DNA from: a virus | Lineage: Duplodnaviria; Caudoviricetes | DNA: 58,821 nt | IMG/VR virus record: IMGVR_UViG_3300022719_000175 | Coordinates: 1-58,821 of that record | Reading direction: 5' to 3' (one strand) | Shown here: positions 10,877 to 58,821 of the stretch, one piece after another | Layout: each line of letters begins with the position of its first letter | Numbering within the stretch: the first letter of the stretch is position 1 | Made by a program: the position numbers and the translations under genes | Notes under the pieces: model-generated | Database searches by the model: none | What the model was told of the DNA's origin: nothing | Seen by the model: only the letters and a program-made list of their open reading frames with translations

Positions 10877-11254
10877 GTGGATCGCCGGTACTGCGAGACG
10901 ATCGTCGCAGAGGCCATCGTGCACTGGCGCGAGGAGCTGCCGATCGAGCCGTGGCGGATCGAGGTGAAGGTCGAGACGTTGGACGACTCGTTCGCGACGA
11001 TTGACCTGCAAGCGGAGTACCGCAATGCCGTCTTGCGCGTGGATCACGAGCGCCACGACACCCGGCGGAAGGTCGAGCAGTCGGTTAGACACGAGATGAT
11101 GCACCTCCTGACGGCGGAGTTCCAGATGTTCTGGGATCTCATCGAGGAGGAGCTACCGGAGGCGAGCCGCAAGCTCGCGGAGCGCGCGTTCGATCAGGCT
11201 TGGGAGCTCGTGGTGCGACGACTGGAGCGCGTATGGCTCGACGACGAAAGCTGA
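10877..11254 (+). CDS. Small HExxH zincin-like protein
   Basis: VRHEMMHL motif with a downstream E. Confidence 0.55.
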   Translation: MDRRYCETIVAEAIVHWREELPIEPWRIEVKVETLDDSFATIDLQAEYRNAVLRVDHERHDTRRKVEQSVRHEMMHLLTAEFQMFWDLIEEELPEASRKLAERAFDQAWELVVRRLERVWLDDES

Positions 11255-16086: not shown

Positions 16087-16791
16087 ATGGCCAAGCGAGG
16101 ACGCCCGATCGGGGGAATCCAGAAGCAGGCGGCGCGCCTTGCAGGGCGGACCTCCGGCCGGGTTCCTCCGCTTACACTCAACGACCAACTCATCTCGCGG
16201 AAGGGCATCGTCGACGTTCCGACGTCGTCGGCGCCCAGCGTCACGGACGGCCTGAGCGTAACCAGCACGCAAGCGGCGAACGACGCAGTGTTCAACTGGC
16301 CCGCGGCGGATCCCGCGTACGAAGACGCTGACCGCCAGAAACCGATTACTATCGAGGTGCTGATCACCGTCTCCGACTGGGAGAACGCGACCGGCCACCT
16401 GTGGGGCGTCGGAAACAACGTCGGCGTCGGCATCAGCTATGACCCGGACGGGTACTGGCACGTCAATGGCTTTTCTTCGGCACCCACCACCCTGAACGGC
16501 GGGGGCCTGTCGGGCAACGCGAGTTTTTCGGAGAACGGCGACTATGTGGCGGTGCTCGCGATCAACCCGGGCGACGAAGGCGAGGATGGGTGGTCGTTCT
16601 GGGTGAACGACGTTCTGGAGGCTACCGGAGACCCGCAATTCTCCGGCTCCTGGATAGGATTGTTCGAGACCCTTCGCGTGGCCCGGATTACAACGTCGAA
16701 CTGCATCCCCGCGGACTCGCGGGCAGCGCCCAGCGGGATGACCGTTACGGGTGTGAACATCTACATGGGACAACTTCCCGCGTCGTTCTAA
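16087..16791 (+). CDS. Putative virion protein with basic N-terminus and LamG-like beta domain
   Basis: 234 aa in the head-tail region; beta-rich C-terminal part. Confidence 0.55.
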   Translation: MAKRGRPIGGIQKQAARLAGRTSGRVPPLTLNDQLISRKGIVDVPTSSAPSVTDGLSVTSTQAANDAVFNWPAADPAYEDADRQKPITIEVLITVSDWENATGHLWGVGNNVGVGISYDPDGYWHVNGFSSAPTTLNGGGLSGNASFSENGDYVAVLAINPGDEGEDGWSFWVNDVLEATGDPQFSGSWIGLFETLRVARITTSNCIPADSRAAPSGMTVTGVNIYMGQLPASF

Positions 16792-16800
16792 GGGGGATGC

Positions 16801-17181
16801 ATGGCGGAGGACAGATGCGGCCGCGAGGTGCGGAACTGGTGTTTCACGCGCGGTGACAACGTGGCCATCAAGGCGACCCTCACGGACAACGCCGACGACT
16901 CGGCGATCGACCTCACCGGATGCACGGTCGTCCTCACGGTCAACTCGGACATCTTCCCGGACGACGACACGAACGAGGTCTTCGTCCTCACGGGCGACAT
17001 TCAGTCCCCGCCGACCGACGGTATCGTGCATTTCCAACCGACCACGACCCAGGCGAACCAGACTCCGGGCGTTTACTTCTACGACATCCAAGTCACGTTC
17101 CTCGACGGCTCGCGCCTCACGGTCGCGACCGGCGAGTGGGAGTACGACGGGCAAGACATCTCGGACCCGGCGGAGAACTAA
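16801..17181 (+). CDS. Virion structural protein (BppU N-terminal-like Ig fold)
   Basis: RGD..., IDLTG.TV, G.Y.YDIQVT pattern. Confidence 0.6.
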   Translation: MAEDRCGREVRNWCFTRGDNVAIKATLTDNADDSAIDLTGCTVVLTVNSDIFPDDDTNEVFVLTGDIQSPPTDGIVHFQPTTTQANQTPGVYFYDIQVTFLDGSRLTVATGEWEYDGQDISDPAEN

Positions 17182-32249: not shown

Positions 32250-32567
32250 ATGGACCCGGACCGGATCGCGCGCATTGAGACCGCTCTCCATGACATCCAG
32301 CACAGTCTAGTCGCCGCGAACGCGCGACAGGAGGCCCAGGACGCGAAGCTCGACCGGGTCGAAGCGAAGGTCGACGCCGTCGAGGTTCGCGTGACGATGG
32401 TCGACGACTCGATCCGCGGGAACGGCGGGCCGGGACTCCGCGCTGCGCATCGGTCTCTTGAAGAGCGCGTCGCGGGCCTTGCGAAGGTCCAAGCCTGGGC
32501 TGTCGGCCTCGTCACGACCTGCGCGCTCGGCATGCTCGCGTGGTCTCTCGGAAAAATCTTTGCGTAA
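32250..32567 (+). CDS. Coiled-coil protein with C-terminal TM helix (holin/XhlA-like)
   Basis: Heptad-rich N-terminus and hydrophobic C-terminus WAVGLVTTCALGMLAWSLG; lies at the usual lysis-gene position. Confidence 0.5.
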   Translation: MDPDRIARIETALHDIQHSLVAANARQEAQDAKLDRVEAKVDAVEVRVTMVDDSIRGNGGPGLRAAHRSLEERVAGLAKVQAWAVGLVTTCALGMLAWSLGKIFA

Positions 32568-32597
32568 CCTTTGCTCCCGAGTGGTACAATCACGTTC

Positions 32598-34154
32598 ATG
32601 AGTGACATCAGACAGCGCACCGTCGAGGCCTACCTGCGCAACGGGGGCAACATCTCCGCCGCGGCTCGGGAAATCGGTCGGCACCCGTCGACCGTCCGGG
32701 AGCACATCCGCAAGGCCGGCATCGAGAAGCCGGTGACCAGCGGGCGCCTGGATCATCCCGAGCCCGCGAGGGCGCCACTCGGCCGCACGTACCTCTTGAC
32801 CTGTGCGCAGAACAACACCCCCGTGCACGGCCCATTCTGGGCCAACCTCGTGGCTCTGGCAGAGGACCGTGACGCGACCCTACTAGTGTCTCGGATCCGC
32901 TACAACCACCACGCCTTCGAGCCGGACGGCGAGGAGTTGTGGTACGACCCGGCGATCGCCGAGTACGCCTCCGACGACGCACTCGAGCTCGGCGACAGGC
33001 TGGTGTGGAACGCCGAGGTCAACATCCTGCCCACGGCCGTGAACCCGCTCTCCGGGTTCGACACCTTCAACGGGCCGAAGTCGAACGTCTTCCCGCACAC
33101 GAAGATCGCGATGGTCTCCGTGGCCAACTCGATGCACGAGCCCACGAAGTTTAACTACACGACAGGCACGGTCACGCAGCGGAACTACGTCCAGCGGAAG
33201 GCGGGCCAGAAGGCCAGCTTCCACCACGCCTACGGCGCGCTGCTCGTGGAGGTCGACTCGATGGGGCAGTGGTGGGCGCGGCAGATCAATGCCAACGAGG
33301 ACGGGTCGTTCCAGGACTTGGACACCGTCGTTCGCGACGGGAACCTCGAGGAGGGCAAAGTCGCGGCGATCATCTGGGGCGACATCCACGTGGCCAACCT
33401 CGATCCGACTGTCCGCGAGGCCTGTTGGGGCACCGGCGGGATGATCGACGAGCTGGCGCCCAAGTATCAGGTCTTCCACGACCTTCTCGACTTCCGGGCG
33501 CGTAACCACCACGACACTCGGAACCCGCACCTGAACTTCCAGAAACACCTTGAGGGCACGGACGACGTGGCCGCGGAGGTCCGGAAGACCGCCGATTTCC
33601 TGCATGAGGCGTACCGCGATGGCGTGCAGTCCGTGGTGGTCCCCAGTAACCACGACGACGCGCTGACGCGCTGGCTTCGCGAGGCGGACTATCGGGACGA
33701 CCCGAAGAACGCCCTCTTCTTCCTGCGCACCCAGACGGCCGTCTATACGGCGATCGCGGAAGGGGAAGACGACTTCCACGTCCTCGAGTGGGTGTTGCAG
33801 GAGAGTCCGTCCGATGGCGTGTGGAGCGCCGTCTTCCTGCAGACCGACGAGTCCTTCGTCGTGCAGGACGTGGAGCTCGGGAACCACGGGCACCTCGGGA
33901 TCAACGGGGCACGTGGGGCGCCGCGCCAGTTCGCTCGCTCAGGACGGAAGGCGGTGACAGGCCACACACACTCGGCGGGGATCATCAATGGCGTCTATAC
34001 CGTCGGCACGAGCAGCCGGCTGGACGCGGGATACAACAAGGGCCCGTCCAGCTGGAGTCACACGCACTGCGTGCTCTACTCCAACGGGAAACGGGCCCTT
34101 GTCACTCTCCGTGATGGGAAGTGGCGCGCTTATGCCCGTCCTTCCTCGTCGTAG
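32598..34154 (+). CDS. HTH + calcineurin-like metallophosphoesterase (T5 A1-like)
   Basis: N-terminal HTH (NISAAAREIGRHPSTV); GDIH, FHDLLD, SNHDD, HGH and GHTH motifs; extended -10 TGGTACAAT at 32582-32590. Confidence 0.72.
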   Translation: MSDIRQRTVEAYLRNGGNISAAAREIGRHPSTVREHIRKAGIEKPVTSGRLDHPEPARAPLGRTYLLTCAQNNTPVHGPFWANLVALAEDRDATLLVSRIRYNHHAFEPDGEELWYDPAIAEYASDDALELGDRLVWNAEVNILPTAVNPLSGFDTFNGPKSNVFPHTKIAMVSVANSMHEPTKFNYTTGTVTQRNYVQRKAGQKASFHHAYGALLVEVDSMGQWWARQINANEDGSFQDLDTVVRDGNLEEGKVAAIIWGDIHVANLDPTVREACWGTGGMIDELAPKYQVFHDLLDFRARNHHDTRNPHLNFQKHLEGTDDVAAEVRKTADFLHEAYRDGVQSVVVPSNHDDALTRWLREADYRDDPKNALFFLRTQTAVYTAIAEGEDDFHVLEWVLQESPSDGVWSAVFLQTDESFVVQDVELGNHGHLGINGARGAPRQFARSGRKAVTGHTHSAGIINGVYTVGTSSRLDAGYNKGPSSWSHTHCVLYSNGKRALVTLRDGKWRAYARPSSS

Positions 34155-36847: not shown

Positions 36848-37177
36848 ATGCGGATCAACCTGCGCCGTGTTCTCTTTGTGGCTCTCCTGGGGGCTGGTGC
36901 CCTCATTCTCGTCTCGTTTATCTCTGGCTGCCGGAACGTCGACCGGCACTACTACCCTCCGACGGGCGACGTCAACGGCGACGGCGTTGTCGATGAGCTC
37001 GACGTCGAGGACCTCGAAGCGCGCCTGGGCATCGAGCCCGACGTCTCCTGCCCGCTCCCCGATCCCGCCGACGTCAACGGTGATGGGTTCATCAACGCAC
37101 GCGACGTCGTCGCGCTCCTCAAGATCATCCGCGATAACCGCCTCTGCGAGCGGTATGGCATCCGCTGCGACGACTGA
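36848..37177 (+). CDS. Lipoprotein with dockerin type I-like domain
   Basis: Signal peptide with lipobox ISGC; GDVNGDGVVDELDV...CPLPDPADVNGDGFINARDV. Confidence 0.8.
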   Translation: MRINLRRVLFVALLGAGALILVSFISGCRNVDRHYYPPTGDVNGDGVVDELDVEDLEARLGIEPDVSCPLPDPADVNGDGFINARDVVALLKIIRDNRLCERYGIRCDD

Positions 37178-37455
37178 TGTTCCGCAAGCGTCCCGGCACC
37201 ATCACCGCGCTCGGTTATCCCGTGTTCCTCCCCTTAATGGGGATCTGCATAGGCGCTCAAGTTGCGCTCATGCTCGTCGGGATCGTCGACCAGGACTACA
37301 CCCCATTCGCCCTCGGCCTCTCGTCGTTCGCTCTCACTTACTGGGGCCTCTCGACGCTCTCGAAGATCGAGAAGGATTACTCCTACGCCATCGCGATGAG
37401 GCGACGTTACGAGGCCGAGGAGCAGCGTCTCATCGAGGAGTCGAAGAAGCGATGA
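37177..37455 (+). CDS. Small membrane protein (2 TM)
   Basis: Two hydrophobic segments and a charged tail. Confidence 0.6.
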   Translation: MFRKRPGTITALGYPVFLPLMGICIGAQVALMLVGIVDQDYTPFALGLSSFALTYWGLSTLSKIEKDYSYAIAMRRRYEAEEQRLIEESKKR

Positions 37456-37511
37456 CGCCTCGGTTCGAATGCCGTGGTCTACCTCTGGCAGCAATGGAAG
37501 AACCGGAAACG

Positions 37512-37748
37512 ATGATCGAGCCCATCACTCCCATCCACCGACCCTGGTACCAGGCGATGATGGCATTCTTCGTCGGCGCGCTCTTCTTCGGCGGTACCTT
37601 CCACGCCGTCGAAGGGCGTGTCCTCGCGGGTGGGTTCTGCCTGTTCGCAGGCGTCACCACGATCCTCGCAGTCCGCGGGATGATCAACGTCGATCGCGAC
37701 TGGCAGCGCCTCCACGAGGCGAAGAAACGCTACGAGAGGAAGCGATGA
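37512..37748 (+). CDS. Small membrane protein (2 TM)
   Basis: Two hydrophobic segments and a basic tail. Confidence 0.55.
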   Translation: MIEPITPIHRPWYQAMMAFFVGALFFGGTFHAVEGRVLAGGFCLFAGVTTILAVRGMINVDRDWQRLHEAKKRYERKR

Positions 37749-38206
37749 GTCTTAAGAAACGCTTGCAGGCCCTCGCCAAGATCGCCAAGGGCGGACCCCA
37801 CGCAGTGGAGATCCGCCGCAACGGTCGAGCAGTCGCGTGCAACAACCGCGTCCGTCTCTCCACGCCCCTACTGAGTGGCGTGTCGGAGGAGGTCTCCGTT
37901 GACCCGACCGTGATCGCGGAAGTCGCGAAGGGCATGTCCGCCAAGGACACGGATTTCTGCTTCTCAAGCGGAACCAGTGATTTCCCGCCGATCGAGCCGC
38001 TGCCGTATCTACCGCCGGCGGACCCGTCATGCACGACGCACGTGGACCCGTTCCTGCTCAAGCGGGCAGTGGACGCCCTGACCTCGTGTTGGGAGGGACC
38101 CAAGGCAGACGCCTGTGTCCGGGTCCATTTCTACCCAAGCCAGCAGGCTATCGTGATGAGCGCGAACGACGTGCACGTCATCCTGCGATCGGTGGTCCCA
38201 GTATGA
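37745..38206 (+). CDS. Hypothetical protein (weak beta-clamp-fragment resemblance)
   Basis: DFPPIEPL...VDPFLL pattern; ATGA overlap. Confidence 0.45.
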   Translation: MSLKKRLQALAKIAKGGPHAVEIRRNGRAVACNNRVRLSTPLLSGVSEEVSVDPTVIAEVAKGMSAKDTDFCFSSGTSDFPPIEPLPYLPPADPSCTTHVDPFLLKRAVDALTSCWEGPKADACVRVHFYPSQQAIVMSANDVHVILRSVVPV

Positions 38207-45274: not shown

Positions 45275-46264
45275 ATGAGATTGATTGAGGCAAGAAATCC
45301 GCATCAAGCCCTGCCGAAGGCCTTGAAGATGCTCCAAGACGACGGGCATCTGCGTAAGAGCCGCGCGGGAGCGGTGATGACGGTGGATGGGCCCGTCACC
45401 ACGACCTACGAACGACCGTGGGAGATGGTGGTATTCCAGGCGCAACGGGACGCAAACCCATTCTTTCACCTCATGGAGGCCCTGTGGATGCTCGCCGGGC
45501 GGGATGATCTCGCCTTCGTGCGCCGGTTCAACCGCGGGATCGCGCGTTTCGCCGAAGACGAGGGCTACTTCCATGGGGCGTACGGCCGCCGCTGGCGGCA
45601 CCACTTCGGCGCGGATCAGCTCCCGTCCATCGTGCGGGCACTGCGCGAGCAGCCCAACTGCCGGCGGCAAATCCTGCAAATGTGGGACCCGCTCATCGAC
45701 CTGAACGCGAGCAAGCGGGACATCCCGTGCAACATCACGGTCCACTTCCAGGTTTCGTTCCGGAAGCGGCTGGACATGACGGTCTTTTGCCGCTCCAACG
45801 ACGTCGTGTGGGGCTGCTACGGATCCGACTGCGTGACGTTTGGAGTCCTGCAGCAGTTCGTGGCCGCGGCCGTGGGCGTCCCGCCCGGGCGGTACTTCCA
45901 GGTCAGCGACAACTTTCACGCCTACACGGACACGGCGGACTTCGCTCTCGCGGACCAGGCGGGCGAGATGTGCCCGTACGAGTGGGGCTCCGTTGTTCCC
46001 ACACGGCTTGTGGATCACGGGATGGACGCCGACGATTTCATCGCGGACGTCGAGAATTTTTGCAGCGGCGGGACCACGAAGTCGTGGTTTCTCCAGCGCG
46101 TCGCCGAGCCCATGGCCCGCGCCTACGACCGTTTTCGGGGTATGCGAAACCACCCGGAACGCTATGATCTAGCCCTGGAAGAGCTTTCCTACGGCGCATG
46201 TCACTCTGACTGGATCGTGGCCGCGAAAGAGTGGTTCGAAAGGAGGCAGCAGTGCCGGGCATGA
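45275..46264 (+). CDS. ThyA-family pyrimidine hydroxymethylase/methylase, predicted dCMP-specific
   Basis: RDANPFFHLMEALWMLAGR, GAYG.RWR, catalytic DIPCN, RSNDVVWGCYGSD and NFHAY motifs. Confidence 0.85.
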   Translation: MRLIEARNPHQALPKALKMLQDDGHLRKSRAGAVMTVDGPVTTTYERPWEMVVFQAQRDANPFFHLMEALWMLAGRDDLAFVRRFNRGIARFAEDEGYFHGAYGRRWRHHFGADQLPSIVRALREQPNCRRQILQMWDPLIDLNASKRDIPCNITVHFQVSFRKRLDMTVFCRSNDVVWGCYGSDCVTFGVLQQFVAAAVGVPPGRYFQVSDNFHAYTDTADFALADQAGEMCPYEWGSVVPTRLVDHGMDADDFIADVENFCSGGTTKSWFLQRVAEPMARAYDRFRGMRNHPERYDLALEELSYGACHSDWIVAAKEWFERRQQCRA

Positions 46265-46638
46265 AGTTCGACAAGAACAAAACGCGCCTCGAGCTGCTGC
46301 CGTTCGACGCGCTCGAGCAGTGTGCCGACGTGTTCGCCTTCGGCGCGGCCAAGTACGGGGAATGGAACTGGACGGGAATCGAGGAGGGCGTGCAGCGCTA
46401 CGTTGGCTCGCTGCTCCGTCATGTGTCTCGATTCCAGCAGGGGGAAGAGATTGATCCCGATTCCGGGCTGCACCACCTCGCTCACGCGGGGGCGTGCTGC
46501 CTCATCATCTTGCGCTTCCTCGCGGAGGAAGGGCGACTCCCAACTGAGAAGAAGGACCTCAGTGATGTTACAAATGAGTTTACCCCTGCCCGGGACGCCT
46601 ACGCCCGAGACGGAGAATACGATGAGAACGCCGCGTGA
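46261..46638 (+). CDS. dNTP diphosphohydrolase domain protein (DUF5664-like)
   Basis: KFDKNK.RLELLP, FGAAKYG..NW and DPDSGLHHLAHA motifs. Confidence 0.85.
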   Translation: MKFDKNKTRLELLPFDALEQCADVFAFGAAKYGEWNWTGIEEGVQRYVGSLLRHVSRFQQGEEIDPDSGLHHLAHAGACCLIILRFLAEEGRLPTEKKDLSDVTNEFTPARDAYARDGEYDENAA

Positions 46639-50299: not shown

Positions 50300-52595
50300 T
50301 ACTTTCCTCGAGCGACTGCGGCCCGGAGGCCCGTGGGTGCTGGTGGCGATCAACCCAGAAACCGAGGGGCAGCTCGTCACGGAAACGCTCTCGTCGCGCG
50401 AGTCTGTGCAGGCGTTTGTCGAGAAATACGTGGGTTGGAATCTGTACTACTCGCTCAATCCGACGCTCCGCAGCATCAACAAAAAGGCGCGGCGCGAGGA
50501 TATCGCCGCCGTCGAGTACTTTCACGTGGATCTCGACCCGCGAGCCGGCGAGGATCTCGAGAGCGAGCAAGCCCGGATCGAGACGCTCATCAACGAGCTG
50601 CCGACAGGAATCCCCACGCCGACCGGCATCATCTTCTCCGGCGGCGGCTACAACCTGCTGTGGAAGCTCGAACAGGCGATCCCCGTGGACGGAAACCTCG
50701 ACGCCGCGGAGGACGCGAAGCTATACAACCTCCGCCTCGAGCGCGTGCTCGGTGCCGACAACTGCCACAATGTCGACCGGATCCTCCGGCTGCCGAGCAC
50801 CACGAATTGGCCCAACGCGCGGAAGAAGAAGCGCGGCCGCGAGCCGGCCGAGGCGCGCGTCGTGCAGTGGAACCCCGAGCTCATCTATCCCGTCGATTCC
50901 TTCCAGAAAGCCCACCCGGTCGCCACGAACGCGGTGCCCAAGCCGAAGATTGAGATCTCGGGTAACATCCGGCGTCTGAGTGAGGACGAGCTCGAGGACC
51001 TGCCGATCGCCGAGTGGTGCAAGCTCGTCATCCTCCACGGCAAGGACCCCATCGATGAGTACAAGTACCCGTCCCGGTCCGAGGCGCTCTTCGCCGTCGT
51101 GTGCGAAATGGTCCGCAAGGAAATCTCCGACGAGGTCATCTACTCGGTCATCACCGACCCCGAGCTCAAGATCTCGGAGTCTGTCCTCGAAAAGGGCTCG
51201 AGCACGGAGCGCTACGCGCTCAACCAGATCGAACGGGCTCGGACGATGGCCGTGGACCCGCACCTACTCGACCTCAACGACGAGTTCGCGGTCATCGAAA
51301 ACCTCGGCGGGCGTGTCCGCATCGTCCGGTTCGTGGAGGACCCCGTCACGGGCCACATGAAGCCGCAGCGGTTTACCTTCGAGGACTTCAAGAAGATGAT
51401 GATGAACCAGCGGATCGAGATCCGGAACGGCGACCGGACGCGAACGGTCGGCCTGGGCGACTGGTGGCTCACTCACCCCGAGCGGAGGCAGTACCAGCAA
51501 ATGGTCTTCTCGCCCGCGCGGGATCCGAAGAACTCGCTCAACCTCTGGCGCGGCTTCGCGTGCGAGGCCCTGCCGCCGGATCCGGGCGAGACTGGTAAGC
51601 ATCAGCGCTACCTCGACCACCTGCTTGAGAATGTCTGCGGCGGCAACAAGACCCACTTCGGGTACCTCGTCAAGTGGATGGCTCGCGCCGTTCAGAATCC
51701 CGACCTGCCCGGGTACTCCGCGGTCGTACTCCGCGGCGGACAAGGAACTGGAAAAGGCATCGCCGCCCGGGAATTCGGCTCCCTCTTCGGGCCCCACTTC
51801 AAGCACGTGTCCGATGCGTCGCGCGTTACCGGCAAGCACAATCTTCACCTGCAGGACTGCGTCGTCCTGTTCGCCGACGAGGCGTTCTTCGCCGGAGACA
51901 AGCAGCACGCCGCGGCGCTAAAGCGGATCGTGACCGAGTCCACCTTGGACATCGAGGCGAAATACCACGACGCGGAGATCACGCCGAACCACCTACATAT
52001 CATCATGGCCTCCAACGAGGATTGGATCGTGCCGGCGGATGCGGACGACCGTCGCTTCTTCGTGCTCGAGGTCGCCGACGGCAACAAGCAAGACCGCATG
52101 TACTTCCGCCGGATCATCGACGACCTGAACAACGGCGGCCGGGAGCACCTGCTGTTCTACCTGCAGTCCCTCGATCTGACCGGCTTCGAGGTGGATTCGA
52201 TCCCGCAGACCAGTGCGCTCCGTGAGCAGAAGATGCGGTCGCTCGACCCGCTCCACGCCTGGTGGTATGAGAAGCTCGAGCGGGGCTATGTGTTCGACGA
52301 TGACGACGACGGCTGGCCTGAGAACGTCCCCGTGGACACACTCAAGTCGGACTTCCACGAGCACGTCCGTGCACAAAGTAAGCGCACCGGCACGACGACT
52401 TTCGCGATGAACAGGTTCCTCGAACGCGTGCTCGCGCGAAAAGTCAGCACCGTCCAGCTCGCTGCGACAACCGTACGGGTCAACGGCGAGCCGGTTCCGA
52501 AGAAGAAGCCGTACGCTTACGAGCTCCCGAGCCTAAGCGAATGCCGCGCGGCTTGGGACAAACTGCTCGGGATGGAGTCGACGTGGTCCGTCTAA
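50289..52595 (+). CDS. Primase-helicase (RepB-like primase + SF3/DUF5906 helicase)
   Basis: HVDLD, SGGGY and RILRLP primase motifs; Walker A GGQGTGKG, FADE, MASN and DDRRF. Confidence 0.9.
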   Translation: MSPDTFLERLRPGGPWVLVAINPETEGQLVTETLSSRESVQAFVEKYVGWNLYYSLNPTLRSINKKARREDIAAVEYFHVDLDPRAGEDLESEQARIETLINELPTGIPTPTGIIFSGGGYNLLWKLEQAIPVDGNLDAAEDAKLYNLRLERVLGADNCHNVDRILRLPSTTNWPNARKKKRGREPAEARVVQWNPELIYPVDSFQKAHPVATNAVPKPKIEISGNIRRLSEDELEDLPIAEWCKLVILHGKDPIDEYKYPSRSEALFAVVCEMVRKEISDEVIYSVITDPELKISESVLEKGSSTERYALNQIERARTMAVDPHLLDLNDEFAVIENLGGRVRIVRFVEDPVTGHMKPQRFTFEDFKKMMMNQRIEIRNGDRTRTVGLGDWWLTHPERRQYQQMVFSPARDPKNSLNLWRGFACEALPPDPGETGKHQRYLDHLLENVCGGNKTHFGYLVKWMARAVQNPDLPGYSAVVLRGGQGTGKGIAAREFGSLFGPHFKHVSDASRVTGKHNLHLQDCVVLFADEAFFAGDKQHAAALKRIVTESTLDIEAKYHDAEITPNHLHIIMASNEDWIVPADADDRRFFVLEVADGNKQDRMYFRRIIDDLNNGGREHLLFYLQSLDLTGFEVDSIPQTSALREQKMRSLDPLHAWWYEKLERGYVFDDDDDGWPENVPVDTLKSDFHEHVRAQSKRTGTTTFAMNRFLERVLARKVSTVQLAATTVRVNGEPVPKKKPYAYELPSLSECRAAWDKLLGMESTWSV

Positions 52596-52846
52596 GGCCT
52601 GAAACCCAGAAGAGCATTGCCGCCTTCTTCGGCAACGACAAGACGCCCGACGAAGTCATGCACGAATTCCTGGATGAAGTGAAGGATCTCGAGGTGGCGT
52701 GGTTCACCTCAGACGATCTTGAAGAAGTTGCGGAGGGATTCGCCCGCGTCGCGTGTGCGCTCATGTGCGCCGCTGACGGGGTCGATATCTCCGTGCAAGC
52801 CGAGGTCGACGTATACATGCGCGACCTCAGAAAGGAGGCCGAGTAG
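52583..52846 (+). CDS. Hypothetical acidic protein
   Basis: GGAG RBS before GTG. Confidence 0.5.
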   Translation: MVRLRPETQKSIAAFFGNDKTPDEVMHEFLDEVKDLEVAWFTSDDLEEVAEGFARVACALMCAADGVDISVQAEVDVYMRDLRKEAE

Positions 52847-53064
52847 TGGCCGACCAAGCTCCGGCGCCGCGGAAGGTGCCGATCCAAAGTCCCGAGTACA
52901 AGCGAAAGGTCACGATCCAGACCATCGGTCCGATCATCGCCGCGCTCGGACTCAACCTCGACCCGGAAGTCCTCGCGGCGGGCGTCGGCGTGTTCCTCGC
53001 CGTCGCCGAACTGGGCTACCTGCTCGTCCGTCGCCGCAACGCGAAGAAGGGAGCTGCGCAATGA
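52846..53064 (+). CDS. Holin-like small membrane protein
   Basis: 72 aa; two hydrophobic helices; highly basic C-terminus RRRNAKK. Confidence 0.6.
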   Translation: MADQAPAPRKVPIQSPEYKRKVTIQTIGPIIAALGLNLDPEVLAAGVGVFLAVAELGYLLVRRRNAKKGAAQ

Positions 53065-53339
53065 GAACCACCATCCTCGCGCTCGTCCTCGCGTTCGTCG
53101 CCGGCTGCGCCTTCTTCGAGCGCCCGGAACGGCAAGTCGTTTTGCCCGGCCCAGACGGAGTCCTCGGCACCGCCGATGACATCGTCACGACCGAGAAGGA
53201 CGACTCCGACGCAGAGAAGTCCGCGGACGTCGTCAAGACGATCCTTACCCTCCTCGGATTCGGCGCCGCTGGCGCGGCCGTCGTGACCGGCACGGAAGTC
53301 GCCTCGAACATCGCGACCAACCGGAAGAAGAGGCAATGA
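53061..53339 (+). CDS. Lipoprotein with C-terminal TM segment (unimolecular spanin-like topology)
   Basis: Lipobox FVAGC; GPDGVLGTADDI; hydrophobic TILTLLGFGAAGAAVV; basic tail. Confidence 0.6.
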   Translation: MRTTILALVLAFVAGCAFFERPERQVVLPGPDGVLGTADDIVTTEKDDSDAEKSADVVKTILTLLGFGAAGAAVVTGTEVASNIATNRKKRQ

Positions 53340-54055
53340 GCCGCCTGACAAGGGCGCTCGTCATCGGCTCGTTCCTCTTCATCATCGGTGGGACCTTCGC
53401 CGCGGGCTACAACTGGGTGTCCGAGATCGTCACCGGCTACGAGGCCCGCCTCGCGAGTCTCGAGCATCCGGAGTCCTTCCTCTGGGAGAACGTCGACCAG
53501 GCGTTCCGTCTCGAGAACGGCCTCTGGTGCGGCACCGGCTGGGTCGCTCGATGCCAGAAGGTCGGCGCGGGCTACCGTATCCTCATGGTCACAGCCCGGC
53601 ACGTCGCGGAGGTGGGCCCGGACGTCCCACAGCACGTCCTCGACCAGCGGCAGCATCCCTGGATCGCGACCTCTCGTGACGAACGGTTGACCGGGGGCAC
53701 AGTGCTTGCGCTCCATCCGCAACGCGACGTGGCCGTCCTGGATTTCTTCTCGACGGAGCCAGTCCGGGTCCTCCCGTTCGCCGGCTACCGTCCTCTGTAC
53801 GGGGAGCTCGTTGCCCACTCGGGATACCCGTCGTGCGATGCGAACCTCCGGACGTCCCAGGGACTCCAGTGCCACGACGGCGTGGCCACGTTCCAGGCAT
53901 CGCCCGGCTGCTCCGGCGGGCCGGTGTTCCGCGACGACGGCACCGTGATCGGCATTCTCGTCTCCGGGCTCGGGAACGGCTTCGACACGCTCACGTTCAC
54001 CGGGATGTACGTCCCCGTGAGTGTCTTTGAGGAGTGGCTCCTCGCTCACCTTTGA
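53336..54055 (+). CDS. Membrane-anchored trypsin-like serine protease
   Basis: Catalytic triad TARHV / DVAVL / PGCSGGPV; N-terminal Gly/Ala-rich TM segment. Confidence 0.88.
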   Translation: MSRLTRALVIGSFLFIIGGTFAAGYNWVSEIVTGYEARLASLEHPESFLWENVDQAFRLENGLWCGTGWVARCQKVGAGYRILMVTARHVAEVGPDVPQHVLDQRQHPWIATSRDERLTGGTVLALHPQRDVAVLDFFSTEPVRVLPFAGYRPLYGELVAHSGYPSCDANLRTSQGLQCHDGVATFQASPGCSGGPVFRDDGTVIGILVSGLGNGFDTLTFTGMYVPVSVFEEWLLAHL

Positions 54056-54139: not shown

Positions 54140-54176
54140 GGGCCCGAGGGGATTCAAATCCTCGGGCCCATTCTTT
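54140..54176 (+). terminator. Hairpin/terminator after the protease gene
   Basis: GGGCCCGAGG/CCTCGGGCCC 10-bp stem followed by ATTCTTT. Confidence 0.6.
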
Positions 54177-55412: not shown

Positions 55413-55876
55413 ACATTTTCGTCACCAGCGGCAGCGCCTTCTCCTGCGCCAAGGTCTTGGACGACAAGCGCGTCGTCAAGATGGTGCTCGAGACGGCCCA
55501 GATGCTGTCCACCGCCATCACGGAGCACGGCGGGGAAGGCTTCTACAAGCCCACCCACGTCAACCACCCGTGCTCCCGGTGGGTCAGAGAGACGCGGGGC
55601 AACTACTGGTGGACCGTGCTTCACTTCCACGCCCTGCTGTCGGAGTACTCGCGCCGATACCTGCGGACGCACAAGTGCTCGAACCACTTTCTGGCCGCCG
55701 TTCGCGGCGGCCTGTTCATCCCGGAAGGCTCGCGCACGCCCTTCGTCGACTGCTCCGGGCAAAGCGAAGGGGATGTTTTCGACAACTACTGGGCCTGCCT
55801 GCGTCACAAGTGGGCCAACGACAAGACACCGCCTACGAGGTATAGAGAAAGGATCACACATGCCGCCTCGCTGTAG
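55409..55876 (+). CDS. denV: Pyrimidine dimer DNA glycosylase/endonuclease V-like
   Basis: MNIF......A..LDDKRVVKM.LE.AQMLSTA...YKPTH.NHPC..W pattern. Confidence 0.8.
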   Translation: MNIFVTSGSAFSCAKVLDDKRVVKMVLETAQMLSTAITEHGGEGFYKPTHVNHPCSRWVRETRGNYWWTVLHFHALLSEYSRRYLRTHKCSNHFLAAVRGGLFIPEGSRTPFVDCSGQSEGDVFDNYWACLRHKWANDKTPPTRYRERITHAASL

Positions 55877-56444: not shown

Positions 56445-56996
56445 ATGAAGTACCTCGCAATCCTCACGCTCCTCGTGTCCGTCGGCTGCGCCGCCCAGGA
56501 TCGCCGCGCCGCCTCGCTCGGCGTCCTGACGGACGGCGACAACGCGATTCTCCAAGGCCGCTACGCGACCTTCGAGAAGGACAAGGTCGGCTTCTTCGCC
56601 TCGCTCGGCGCGGGCGGGACTCCGACCTCCACCGACGAATTCGGCAAGGACACCGGTCCGTTCGTCCCCGGCCCGGAGAGTGCGGCCTCGACTCGCTCCG
56701 ATGACTCCGCTTTCGCGATCGGTGCAGCGGGCGGCGTGACCTACCAGCCGCTCGACCAGGTCGCGCTCGTCCTCGGAATGAGTCTCTACGGCGAGCAGGC
56801 GACCCAGGAGTACCGTTACACGACCCCGTTCTCGGGATCCGGCCGGTACCACACCGACGGGGACATCGAGACGAAGGTCGGCATCGTCGTCGGCGTTGAT
56901 TTCTTCAACAGCTCCGACTGGACCCTCGGTGTCCTCTACGACTCCGCACCGGGCGACGATGGCATGTTCGGCCTCACCATCGGGTACTCGTTCTAA
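56445..56996 (+). CDS. Putative outer-membrane beta-barrel protein (Lom/Ail-like), possibly lipidated
   Basis: Signal peptide with SVGC; alternating beta-strands; C-terminal beta-signal FGLTIGYSF. Confidence 0.7.
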   Translation: MKYLAILTLLVSVGCAAQDRRAASLGVLTDGDNAILQGRYATFEKDKVGFFASLGAGGTPTSTDEFGKDTGPFVPGPESAASTRSDDSAFAIGAAGGVTYQPLDQVALVLGMSLYGEQATQEYRYTTPFSGSGRYHTDGDIETKVGIVVGVDFFNSSDWTLGVLYDSAPGDDGMFGLTIGYSF

Positions 56997-58675: not shown

Positions 58676-58821
58676 ATGAGAAGCGGATACGCCCACGACT
58701 TCTGCGGCGACGAGCTTGAGCTCGGACGATGGCGCGGTCAGGTAGCGTCATCCTTGCGCGGCAAGCGCGGGCAGCGGTTCTTGCGCGATCTCATCGATGC
58801 CCTCGACGCGATGCCCGAAAA
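58676..58821 (+). CDS. 5' part of the gene completed at 60-428
   Basis: ATG 58676 with RBS GGAGGAGG; in frame across the junction. Confidence 0.8.
   Translation, partial: MRSGYAHDFCGDELELGRWRGQVASSLRGKRGQRFLRDLIDALDAMPE
58695..58821. repeat. Terminal direct repeat, copy 2 (circular assembly overlap)
   Basis: Identical to 1-127. Confidence 0.95.

What the first reader, a model, noticed from the sequence alone, without database searches (positions are those of the whole stretch)
52846..54055. Candidate endolysin-free lysis cassette: holin-like protein, u-spanin-like lipoprotein and SAR-like trypsin protease
Seen in sequence: three translationally coupled genes (ATGA overlaps). They encode a 72-aa two-TM protein with a basic tail, a lipoprotein (FVAGC) with a C-terminal TM helix, and a serine protease with an intact H/D/S triad and a weakly hydrophobic Gly/Ala-rich N-terminal anchor. 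A terminator follows. Established knowledge: this resembles holin + u-spanin (T1 gp11 topology) + SAR-endolysin architecture. I recognised no muramidase, amidase, transglycosylase or M15/M23 peptidase anywhere in this complete genome. Inference: the phage may lyse its host by proteolysing a proteinaceous wall (S-layer or envelope proteins), with a protease in the endolysin slot. That would fit a Planctomycetota-like host with a thin peptidoglycan layer and a protein-rich envelope.
Basis: partly seen in the sequence, partly recalled or inferred. Interest (0 to 1): 0.85.

Follow-up and report, generated by a model that had tools for sequence, protein, structure and literature searches.

The report
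Phage membrane trio with anchored protease
A complete phage genome with no recognisable cell-wall-cutting enzyme carries three coupled genes for a small membrane protein, a doubly anchored lipoprotein and a membrane-tethered DegS/HtrA-like protease, which may be an unusual lysis module, though this is unproven.

Summary
Three overlapping genes lie at 52846-54055. They encode a 72-aa holin-like membrane protein, a 92-aa lipoprotein with a C-terminal membrane helix, and a 239-aa Trypsin_2 protease with an intact H89/D131/S193 triad and an N-terminal anchor. A strong terminator follows. The genome is complete (127-bp terminal repeat, CheckV 100%). Pfam and PHROGs scans of 88 ORFs and six-frame searches for six major families found no peptidoglycan hydrolase.

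The phage is a distant relative of Yuavirus-type siphophages. Two cultured relatives place lysis cassettes at two different late-operon sites, and both sites lack lysis genes here.

- The protease fold is DegS/HtrA-like without a PDZ domain, and that fold is not known to cut peptidoglycan.
- The holin hit is below Pfam's cut-off.
- The lipoprotein's periplasmic linker (about 43 aa) is short for a spanin.
- The small proteins have no homologues.
- The trio ends the replication operon.
- Among ten viral loci with distant protease relatives, one has a neighbouring M15 peptidase and three have an SPFH partner.
- Cultured relatives all infect Pseudomonadota, so the Planctomycetota idea rests on one weak lead.

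My best reading is a non-canonical lysis module (0.4). The main rival is an envelope-remodelling accessory module (0.33).

The parts
52583..52846 (+). g72, an 87-aa acidic cytoplasmic protein of unknown function (an alternative ATG start at 52541 gives 101 aa). It links the primase gene to the trio and may or may not belong to the module.
   Evidence: ORF and overlaps. No Pfam or PHROGs hit below E 0.08.
52846..53064 (+). g73, a 72-aa small membrane protein. It has a basic N-terminus, one weak and one clear hydrophobic segment, and a basic C-terminal tail (RRRNAKKGAAQ). It is holin- or pinholin-like in topology only.
   Evidence: Pfam Phage_holin_10 E 0.0052, 17.2 bits, below the 27-bit cut-off. 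No PHROG hit. No homologue other than itself.
53061..53339 (+). g74, a 92-aa lipoprotein. It has lipobox VAGC with Cys16, an acidic linker of about 43 aa, a Gly/Ala-rich C-terminal hydrophobic helix and an RKKRQ tail. The topology is u-spanin-like.
   Evidence: It is one of only two lipobox ORFs in coding frames of the genome. No family hit. No homologue.
53336..54055 (+). g75, a 239-aa protease. An N-terminal membrane helix and stalk (residues 3-42) are followed by an HtrA/DegS-like chymotrypsin-fold domain (57-239) with H89/D131/S193. It has no PDZ domain.
   Evidence: Pfam Trypsin_2 E 4.8e-14. phrog_9683 'protease' E 1.6e-8. Triad invariant. AF2 mean pLDDT 93.6. Foldseek PDB top hit is DegS-deltaPDZ, E 6e-11.
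54140..54169 (+). Intrinsic-terminator-like hairpin that ends the operon.
   Evidence: 11 pairs, 9 G-C, 8-nt loop, T-rich tail.

Best explanation
The three coupled genes form a non-canonical lysis module in a phage that has no peptidoglycan hydrolase of its own that I could recognise.

Proposed mechanism (inferred): g73 accumulates in the inner membrane and acts as a timer or depolarising holin-like protein. g75 is held on the periplasmic face of the inner membrane by its N-terminal helix. It is the lytic effector, and it acts on proteins. It would not cut the glycan or the D-amino-acid peptide bonds itself. Likely targets are outer-membrane-to-wall tethers, other envelope proteins, or host autolysins and their inhibitors, which the protease could cleave or activate. 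The precedent is MarP, which cleaves RipA in vitro. g74 is anchored at both ends. It either helps to disrupt the outer membrane or positions or restrains the protease.

Shown here: the gene structure, the predicted topologies, the intact catalytic triad, the DegS/HtrA-like fold, genome completeness, and the absence of HMM-detectable wall hydrolases.

Inferred: every functional step.
For: 1. Three envelope-directed proteins are translationally coupled and closed by a terminator.
2. The genome is complete: a 127-bp direct terminal repeat, and the IMG/VR record is DTR with CheckV 100%.
3. Pfam scans of 88 ORFs showed no wall hydrolase.
   - Set A1: 14 of 14 families shown.
   - Set A3: 25 of 28 shown.
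   - Set A2: 25 of 45 shown. 19 of its 30 members were rescanned, with all 17 families shown.
   - 10 unknown ORFs were scanned at E<=10.
4. PHROGs showed no true lysin. The only 'endolysin' labels, phrog_2252 (located) and phrog_5033 (not located), cannot be a known wall hydrolase: phrog_2252 falls on the dGTP_diPhyd_N protein at 46252-46638, and no member of that set matched a wall-hydrolase Pfam family among those shown.
5. Six-frame searches gave 0 matches at E<=10 for Amidase_2, SLT, Phage_lysozyme, Peptidase_M15_3, NLPC_P60 and Peptidase_M23.
6. Relatives place lysis cassettes at variable sites. Yuavirus Aergia has i-spanin, holin and endolysin between the capsid and adaptor genes. RcRudolph has a 'cell wall hydrolase' plus small genes after the tail genes. 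In this window both sites hold no lysis genes.
7. g74 is the only spanin-like ORF, and g75 is the only exported hydrolase recognised.
8. Lysis that depends on trypsin-like peptidases, with no holin or endolysin homologue found, has a precedent in the Caulobacter GTA system LypABC (PMC13236601, passages read).
9. A membrane-anchored HtrA-like protease (MarP) can cleave the wall hydrolase RipA in vitro, and RipA was proposed to need proteolytic processing (passages of PMC9897464 citing Botella 2017).
Against: 1. No S1/HtrA-type protease is known to act as a phage endolysin. My paper searches found none.
2. The trio is coupled to the primase gene at the end of the replication operon. The cassettes of both relatives lie in late operons.
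3. The holin family hit is below cut-off. g73 and g74 have no homologues even though the protease has two at 56-59% identity. This hints that the trio is not conserved.
4. The periplasmic part of g74 is about 43 residues, which is short for bridging a periplasm.
5. In 10 distinct viral loci with distant protease relatives, 63 neighbouring proteins gave one Peptidase_M15_3, three Band_7/SPFH and no holin family. This kind of protease is therefore usually not in a lysis cassette.
6. About 35 ORFs remain unassigned and were not examined at fold level, so a cryptic endolysin is not excluded.
7. Other holin-like small membrane proteins exist: g43, g53 and g58.
Confidence: 0.4

Rival explanations
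1. The trio is an envelope-remodelling accessory (moron-like) module made together with the replication genes. The tethered periplasmic protease would degrade or process host envelope proteins. Possible purposes are superinfection exclusion, receptor removal, or DegS-like cleavage of an anti-sigma factor to reprogram the host. The two small membrane proteins would be its partners. Lysis would be carried out by an unrecognised endolysin elsewhere.
For: - The trio sits at the 3' end of the primase operon, where YuA and Aergia have only one small unrelated gene before the next promoter.
- The fold and topology match DegS, with an N-terminal anchor and a periplasmic HtrA-type domain.
- Of 133 relatives, 111 are exported or tethered, and 60 of them look like lipoproteins.
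- Relatives in other phages lie next to SPFH proteins and terminase genes. They are not in lysis cassettes.
- Several Uroviricota clusters of small Trypsin_2 proteins exist.
Against: - It leaves a complete genome with no lysis gene of any kind recognised.
- A lipoprotein with a C-terminal membrane helix is a rare topology, best known from u-spanins (PMC6139136).
- No phage periplasmic protease with an exclusion function turned up in my paper search.
Confidence: 0.33
2. g73 and g74 are an ordinary holin (or pinholin) and unimolecular spanin. The protease is an unrelated passenger, and the true endolysin is a divergent enzyme encoded elsewhere in the genome.
For: - The topologies of g73 and g74 fit these roles, and there is a weak Phage_holin_10 hit.
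- About 35 ORFs are unassigned.
- The Yuavirus 'endolysin' itself has no sequence match in the PDB, so divergent lysins exist in this group.
Against: - Holin and spanin genes normally lie beside their endolysin, and here the adjacent enzyme is the protease.
- No hydrolase was found by Pfam, PHROGs or six-frame searches.
- The g74 linker is short.
Confidence: 0.15
3. The three genes are a chance grouping of unrelated small membrane-protein genes with no joint function.
For: The genome holds several other small membrane ORFs: g43, g51-g53, g58 and g77. g73 and g74 are orphans.
Against: There are two consecutive ATGA overlaps and a shared terminator. All three products are directed to the same compartment.
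Confidence: 0.07

Closest known systems
Phage T1 lysis cassette (pinholin, SAR endolysin, unimolecular spanin gp11)
   Same: Three adjacent genes encode a small two-helix membrane protein, a lipoprotein with a C-terminal membrane helix, and an enzyme with an N-terminal membrane segment. PMC6139136 (section 13 read) states that most members of the T1 gp11 family sit with a pinholin and a SAR endolysin.
   Different: The enzyme here is an HtrA/DegS-like protease, whereas T1's is a muralytic enzyme. The lipoprotein has about 43 periplasmic residues with no predicted beta elements. There is no sequence similarity. The cassette lies in the replication operon. The T1 gene order is recalled from memory.
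E. coli DegS (inner-membrane-anchored HtrA-family protease)
   Same: An N-terminal membrane anchor is followed by a periplasmic chymotrypsin-fold domain. DegS-deltaPDZ gives the best Foldseek matches (E 6e-11, TM 0.64 by query and 0.73 by target).
   Different: There is no PDZ domain. Identity is only 16-18%. The protein is phage-encoded. The substrate is unknown.
M. tuberculosis MarP (Rv3671c) and the wall hydrolase RipA
   Same: MarP is a membrane-anchored periplasmic HtrA-like protease, and Rv3671c is rank 20 in the Foldseek search. It gives a precedent for a protease that cleaves a peptidoglycan hydrolase in vitro (PMC9897464, passages citing Botella 2017).
   Different: MarP is a host enzyme with four membrane helices (recalled). 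It is not a phage or lysis protein. No equivalent target is known here.
Caulobacter GTA lysis system LypABC
   Same: Lysis needs the catalytic serines of trypsin-like peptidases. The authors found no canonical holin or endolysin homologue (PMC13236601, passages read).
   Different: LypABC is a host-encoded CARD-NLR-like system with ATPase and nuclease domains. I took it to be cytoplasmic from that domain make-up, not from a statement I read. It has no membrane anchors and no similarity in architecture.
Yuavirus and RcRudolph lysis cassettes (nearest cultured relatives)
   Same: They share the virion and replication gene backbone. Identities to Aergia are capsid protein 61.5%, large terminase 45%, portal 47% and primase 44%. 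RcRudolph gene 35 is 48% identical to g44.
   Different: These phages carry annotated wall hydrolases with holin and spanin genes in late operons. The window has none at either site, and nothing in the window is similar to those proteins (best E 0.36-0.54).

Membership tests
Holin (class II / pinholin type) | Small protein (about 60-150 aa) with two membrane helices and a charged C-terminal tail | tested here: inconclusive
   It is 72 aa with a basic tail. One segment (36-54) passes the hydropathy threshold, and the first (about 24-41) is weak.
Holin (class II / pinholin type) | Membership of a curated holin family | tested here: not met
   Phage_holin_10 scores 17.2 bits against a cut-off of 27, E 0.0052. 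There is no PHROG hit.
Holin (class II / pinholin type) | Gene adjacent to an endolysin gene | tested here: not met
   No peptidoglycan hydrolase lies in the cassette or anywhere in the genome at HMM level.
Holin (class II / pinholin type) | Timed lethal hole formation or membrane depolarisation | not testable with these tools
   This needs expression in a host.
Unimolecular spanin (T1 gp11 type) | Outer-membrane lipoprotein signal with lipobox | tested here: met
   The lipobox is VAGC with Cys16, which fits [LVI][ASTVI][GAS]C (consensus from PMC6139136).
Unimolecular spanin (T1 gp11 type) | C-terminal membrane helix | tested here: met
   A hydrophobic segment at 57-75 is followed by RKKRQ.
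Unimolecular spanin (T1 gp11 type) | Periplasmic domain able to bridge the membranes (a short helix plus four or more beta elements in the T1 family) | tested here: not met
   The linker has only about 43 residues, 11 of them acidic, and is rich in Pro and Gly. The partner's fold was uncertain, with pLDDT under 50. The criterion comes from PMC6139136, section 13.
Unimolecular spanin (T1 gp11 type) | No periplasmic cysteine | tested here: met
   Cys16 is the only cysteine. None of the 58 u-spanins had a periplasmic cysteine (PMC6139136).
Unimolecular spanin (T1 gp11 type) | Complements an Rz/Rz1 defect | not testable with these tools
   This is a bench test.
SAR endolysin | Muralytic catalytic domain | tested here: not met
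   The domain is Trypsin_2 / HtrA-like.
SAR endolysin | Weakly hydrophobic, Gly/Ala/Ser-rich N-terminal segment that can leave the membrane | tested here: inconclusive
   9 of 19 residues in 7-25 are Gly, Ala, Ser or Thr, but mean hydropathy is 1.83-2.14. The homologues have ordinary anchors or lipoboxes. AF2 gives one continuous helix at 3-42.
Peptidase clan PA, HtrA/DegS-like (S1C-like) | Family HMM above the curated cut-off | tested here: met
   Trypsin_2 scores 53.8 bits against 27.6, and Trypsin scores 22.6 against 20.6.
Peptidase clan PA, HtrA/DegS-like (S1C-like) | His-Asp-Ser catalytic triad | tested here: met
   H89, D131 and S193 are invariant in 48 of 48 aligned sequences.
Peptidase clan PA, HtrA/DegS-like (S1C-like) | C-terminal PDZ domain(s) | tested here: not met
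   The protein ends at residue 239, directly after the protease domain.
Peptidase clan PA, HtrA/DegS-like (S1C-like) | HtrA-type fold of the protease domain | tested here: met
   Foldseek PDB gives DegS, MarP, DegP, DegQ and HtrA1 at E 6e-11 to 1e-9, with 1089 matches at E<=0.001.

The most novel reading that the evidence does not exclude
This tailed phage lyses a diderm host with no peptidoglycan hydrolase of its own. A holin-like timer and a membrane-tethered, PDZ-less HtrA/DegS-like protease bring down the envelope. They would do so by proteolysis of envelope proteins or by proteolytic unleashing of host autolysins. The module would have replaced the wall-hydrolase cassettes seen in its cultured relatives.
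Probability: 0.2. Interest if true: 0.85.

Novelty: new variant of a known kind. Interest (0 to 1): 0.55.

Why it matters
Lysis by tailed phages of diderm bacteria is generally described as needing a holin, a peptidoglycan-degrading endolysin and an outer-membrane disruptor. A complete genome in which the only exported hydrolase is a protease would be a clean test case. It is flanked by holin-like and spanin-like genes, and the wall-hydrolase cassettes of related phages are absent. The question it tests is whether the endolysin step can be replaced or outsourced to host autolysins.

It would also give a first function to the many small, tethered Trypsin_2 proteases found in uncultured phages. 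If the module instead remodels the envelope during replication, it would be a new kind of phage-encoded DegS-like host-takeover or exclusion device. Both outcomes can be tested with three small genes.

Tried and rejected
Searches for relatives and context that gave nothing:
- Megablast of 46-58 kb against phages gave only a 45-bp match.
- tblastn of the protease against phages gave none.
- Scans with the protease or primase as single queries found nothing in viral contigs.
- Scans with alignment A4 found nothing in metagenome contigs or genome contigs.
- A scan with g11 found nothing in genome contigs. The host is therefore undetermined.

False alarm: the PHROG label 'endolysin; inhibits RNA polymerase'. 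phrog_2252 maps to the dGTP_diPhyd_N protein at 46252-46638. I did not locate phrog_5033. No member of that set matched a wall-hydrolase Pfam family among the 25 of 28 shown.

Candidates considered and dropped:
- g27 (16087-16791) lies where Yuavirus has its endolysin. I rejected it as a divergent lysin. Its best local match has E 0.007 in a single comparison over 69 residues, and by eye it looks like a LamG-type beta protein.
- g43 (32250-32567) has weak XhlA (E 4e-4) and phrog_689 'holin' (E 2e-3) hits. I considered it as an alternative holin. It has the size, topology and position of RcRudolph gene 34, just before the A1-like gene, but no sequence similarity to it. I left it open.
- g54 was considered as a cryptic lysin. 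It has no PDB match, and single-sequence AF2 gave mean pLDDT 39.6, which is unusable.
- PDB sequence searches of g80, g83, g27 and g1 gave nothing below E 0.9.

Jobs with no usable answer:
- Complex prediction of g74 (residues 16-60) with g75 (residues 40-239) gave no verdict, score 0.01.
- No RNA holder was listed for the stretch, and read laying was not used.
- The paper search for Pam3 gp28 holin context gave nothing useful.

Limits:
- Supplements of papers were not opened. Table S1 of PMC6139136 (u-spanin lengths) could bear on the linker argument.
- The PHROGs scan was not run on 6 of the 88 ORFs: g32, g36, g51, g55, g59 and g60. All six have strong Pfam assignments.
Full report
**What is there.** The window is a complete virus record. 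Bases 1-127 repeat exactly at 58695-58821. The record is classed as having direct terminal repeats, with CheckV completeness 100. G+C is 63.9%, and no tRNA gene was found.

The finding's coordinates hold three genes on the + strand: 52846-53064 (72 aa, GTG start), 53061-53339 (92 aa) and 53336-54055 (239 aa). Both junctions are ATGA overlaps. The stop of the preceding 87-aa ORF overlaps the GTG start. A codon-usage gene caller trained on the long ORFs of this genome picks all three, with scores 28.1, 38.9 and 61.6. A hairpin of 11 pairs (9 G-C) with a T-rich tail lies at 54140-54169. The terminator scan as a whole was not above shuffles (6 sites against 4.8 +/- 2.2), so this rests on the strength and position of that one site.

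**The three proteins.**

g75 is a real serine protease:
- It matches Pfam Trypsin_2 at E 4.8e-14, above the curated cut-off, and phrog_9683 'protease' at E 1.6e-8.
- H89, D131 and S193 are invariant in 48 of 48 aligned relatives.
- An AlphaFold2 model built on that alignment has mean pLDDT 93.6. It shows one continuous helix at residues 3-42 and a two-barrel domain at 57-239.
- Foldseek against the PDB puts DegS without its PDZ domain first (E 6e-11, TM 0.64 by query and 0.73 by target, 18% identity). Rv3671c/MarP, DegP, DegQ and HtrA1 follow.
- Sequence search of the PDB gives only weak hits to Spl, HtrA2 and glutamyl endopeptidases.

So g75 is a PDZ-less HtrA/DegS-like protease tethered by an N-terminal helix.

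g74 has lipobox VAGC with Cys16. An acidic, Pro/Gly-rich linker of about 43 residues follows, then a Gly/Ala-rich hydrophobic segment and a basic end. A scan of all frames found lipobox ORFs in coding frames only for g74 and for g51.

g73 has a basic N-terminus, a weak first hydrophobic segment, a clear second one and a basic tail. Its only family hit is Phage_holin_10 at E 0.0052 and 17.2 bits, below the 27-bit cut-off. Neither g73 nor g74 has any homologue other than itself in the word-indexed search of 5.8 billion proteins.

**Is the genome really without an endolysin?** I called 90 ORFs and scanned 88 of them.

Pfam results:
- The first 30 ORFs gave 14 families, all shown.
- The next 30 gave 45 families, of which 25 were shown.
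- The last 28 gave 28 families, of which 25 were shown.
- 19 of the middle 30 were rescanned, and all 17 families were shown.
- Ten unassigned ORFs were scanned at E up to 10.

None of the families shown is a wall hydrolase.

PHROGs scans gave one false alarm. phrog_2252, labelled 'endolysin; inhibits RNA polymerase', maps to 46237-46527. That stretch is the dATP/dGTP diphosphohydrolase N-terminal domain protein.

Six-frame searches of the whole record gave 0 matches at E<=10 for Amidase_2, SLT, Phage_lysozyme, Peptidase_M15_3, NLPC_P60 and Peptidase_M23. The control genomes did give matches in the same searches.

This is an HMM-level result. About 35 ORFs stay unassigned, and I could not examine them at fold level. 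The one attempt, g54 without an alignment, gave pLDDT 39.6.

**What the relatives show.** The phage belongs to the wider group of Yuavirus-like siphophages. Against Pseudomonas phage Aergia, the capsid protein is 61.5% identical, the large terminase 45%, the portal 47%, the adaptor 49% and the primase 44%.

In Aergia the annotated i-spanin, holin and endolysin lie between the capsid genes and the head-tail adaptor. The endolysin there has a signal-like N-terminus, and I recognise its motifs as transglycosylase-like from recall. In the window that interval holds g27 and g28. Neither resembles any Aergia lysis protein (best E 0.54).

Rhodobacter phage RcRudolph and Xanthomonas phage FMYAK-P1 also have no lysis genes in that interval. 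The Yuavirus placement is therefore lineage-specific.

RcRudolph has a 'cell wall hydrolase' and four small genes after its tail genes. These lie just before gene 35, which is 48% identical to the window's g44. In the window that slot holds only g43.

So two relatives keep lysis cassettes at two different late-operon sites, and the window has none at either. The genes after the primase in YuA and Aergia are unrelated to g72-g75.

**What the protease family shows.** An exhaustive profile-free search of 1.84 billion representatives found 133 relatives at E<=1e-3, only one of them below 1e-30. Their median length is 217 aa. Sixty have a lipobox-like N-terminus, 51 have another hydrophobic N-terminus and 22 have none. 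The Atlas lists several Uroviricota clusters of Trypsin_2 proteins of 200-280 aa. BFVD gives mostly uncultured phage proteins, plus one from Rhizobium phage AF3.

Fourteen IMG/VR loci with distant relatives (26-35% identity, two short matches at 53%) were fetched. I analysed 12 of them, dropping L019 and L020, whose matches cover only about 30 residues. Ten of the 12 are distinct, because L001 duplicates L002 and L015 duplicates L014.

Among 63 neighbouring proteins (four genes on either side, plus one more in L003; proteins over 460 aa or under 40 aa left out), Pfam found Band_7/SPFH in three loci (L003, L011, L012) and Peptidase_M15_3 in one (L017). It found no holin family. In L011 and L012 the order is small terminase, a protein of about 100 aa, an SPFH protein, the anchored protease, a small protein, and the large terminase.

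The holin-lipoprotein-protease order therefore does not recur in the relatives I could reach.

**Weighing.**

In favour of a lysis role:
- A complete genome must encode lysis.
- This is the only place where a holin-like protein, a spanin-like lipoprotein and an exported hydrolase lie together and are translationally coupled.
- Lysis cassettes move around in this phage group.
- Protease-dependent lysis without a canonical holin or endolysin homologue has a precedent in the Caulobacter GTA system (PMC13236601, passages read).
- A membrane-anchored HtrA-like protease (MarP) cleaves a wall hydrolase (RipA) in vitro (PMC9897464, passages read).

Against a lysis role:
- The fold is not muralytic.
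- The module ends a replication operon.
- The holin hit is below cut-off.
- The lipoprotein's linker is short. Fully extended it would reach roughly 15 nm. That figure is my inference from residue spacing, and periplasm widths are recalled.
- The small proteins are orphans.
- Distant relatives mostly sit outside lysis cassettes.
- A cryptic endolysin is not excluded.

I put the lysis-module reading at 0.4, with the protease acting on proteins and not on the glycan or the D-amino-acid peptide bonds. The envelope-remodelling accessory reading is at 0.33. An ordinary holin and spanin with a hidden endolysin is at 0.15. Chance grouping is at 0.07.

**Host.** The Planctomycetota suggestion is not supported beyond one lead. 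The LamG/dockerin protein g11 has as its nearest Atlas cluster one whose known members are mostly Planctomycetota (score 0.96, phylum known for 13 of 55 members). All cultured phages with a capsid protein 50-62% identical infect Pseudomonadota. g84 looks like an outer-membrane protein, so the host is probably diderm. Genome-contig scans found nothing.

**Novelty and score.** The parts are known kinds: an HtrA-like protease, a lipoprotein and a small membrane protein. The combination, in a complete genome with no recognisable wall hydrolase, would be a new variant of the lysis cassette if it is one. My four paper searches on phage lysis and serine proteases found no such case in print. The evidence is all in silico and the synteny test is still open, so interest is moderate at 0.55.

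Noticed in passing
window 32250-34154: g44 (518 aa) has an N-terminal HTH domain and matches phrog_1745 'DNA transfer protein' at E 1e-186. I also see metallophosphoesterase-like motifs by eye. It is 48% identical to RcRudolph gene 35. In both phages a protein of about 105 aa with a C-terminal membrane helix comes just before it (g43 here, gene 34 there). The two small proteins share position and topology but no sequence similarity.
   Followed up: partly
window 46252-46638: PHROG families phrog_2252 and phrog_5033 are labelled 'endolysin; inhibits RNA polymerase'. phrog_2252 hits the dATP/dGTP diphosphohydrolase N-terminal domain protein here. The label misleads automatic annotation.
   Followed up: yes
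window 36848-38206: A second membrane cluster lies early in the replication operon. It comprises a dockerin-repeat lipoprotein (g51), a 61-aa protein (g52), a two-helix 84-aa protein with a basic tail (g53) and an unassigned 153-aa protein (g54).
   Followed up: partly
window 56445-56996: g84 (183 aa) has a signal or lipoprotein-like N-terminus and ends in an aromatic residue after alternating strands. It looks like a small outer-membrane beta-barrel, which suggests a diderm host. It has no family hit.
   Followed up: partly
L011 4416-5722; L012 7349-8612; L003 2135-4479: In three uncultured phages, an SPFH/Band_7 protein is paired with a membrane-anchored trypsin-like protease. In L011 and L012 the pair lies between the small and large terminase genes. 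Its function is unknown.
   Followed up: partly
L017 7429-8858: In one uncultured phage, a 40-aa membrane protein, a 241-aa exported trypsin-like protease and a 43-aa ORF are followed by a Peptidase_M15_3 protein (E 2e-24). This is the only case seen of such a protease beside a wall peptidase.
   Followed up: partly
window 55462-55506: A 45-bp stretch inside g81 (a Pyr_excise-like protein) is 95.6% identical to Pseudomonas phages PaMx28, AAT-1, phiH2 and PA_LZ02. It is the only nucleotide-level match to any cultured phage in the 46-58 kb stretch searched.
   Followed up: no
window 10877-11254: g18 (125 aa, in the head module) carries an HExxH-type motif (HEMMH). It may be a small metalloprotease. 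One member of that gene set, not identified, matched a 'head maturation protease' PHROG.
   Followed up: no
window 16087-17181: The interval that holds the lysis cassette in Yuavirus is occupied here by two beta-rich proteins, g27 (234 aa, basic disordered N-terminus) and g28 (126 aa). They are probably virion decoration or structural proteins.
   Followed up: partly
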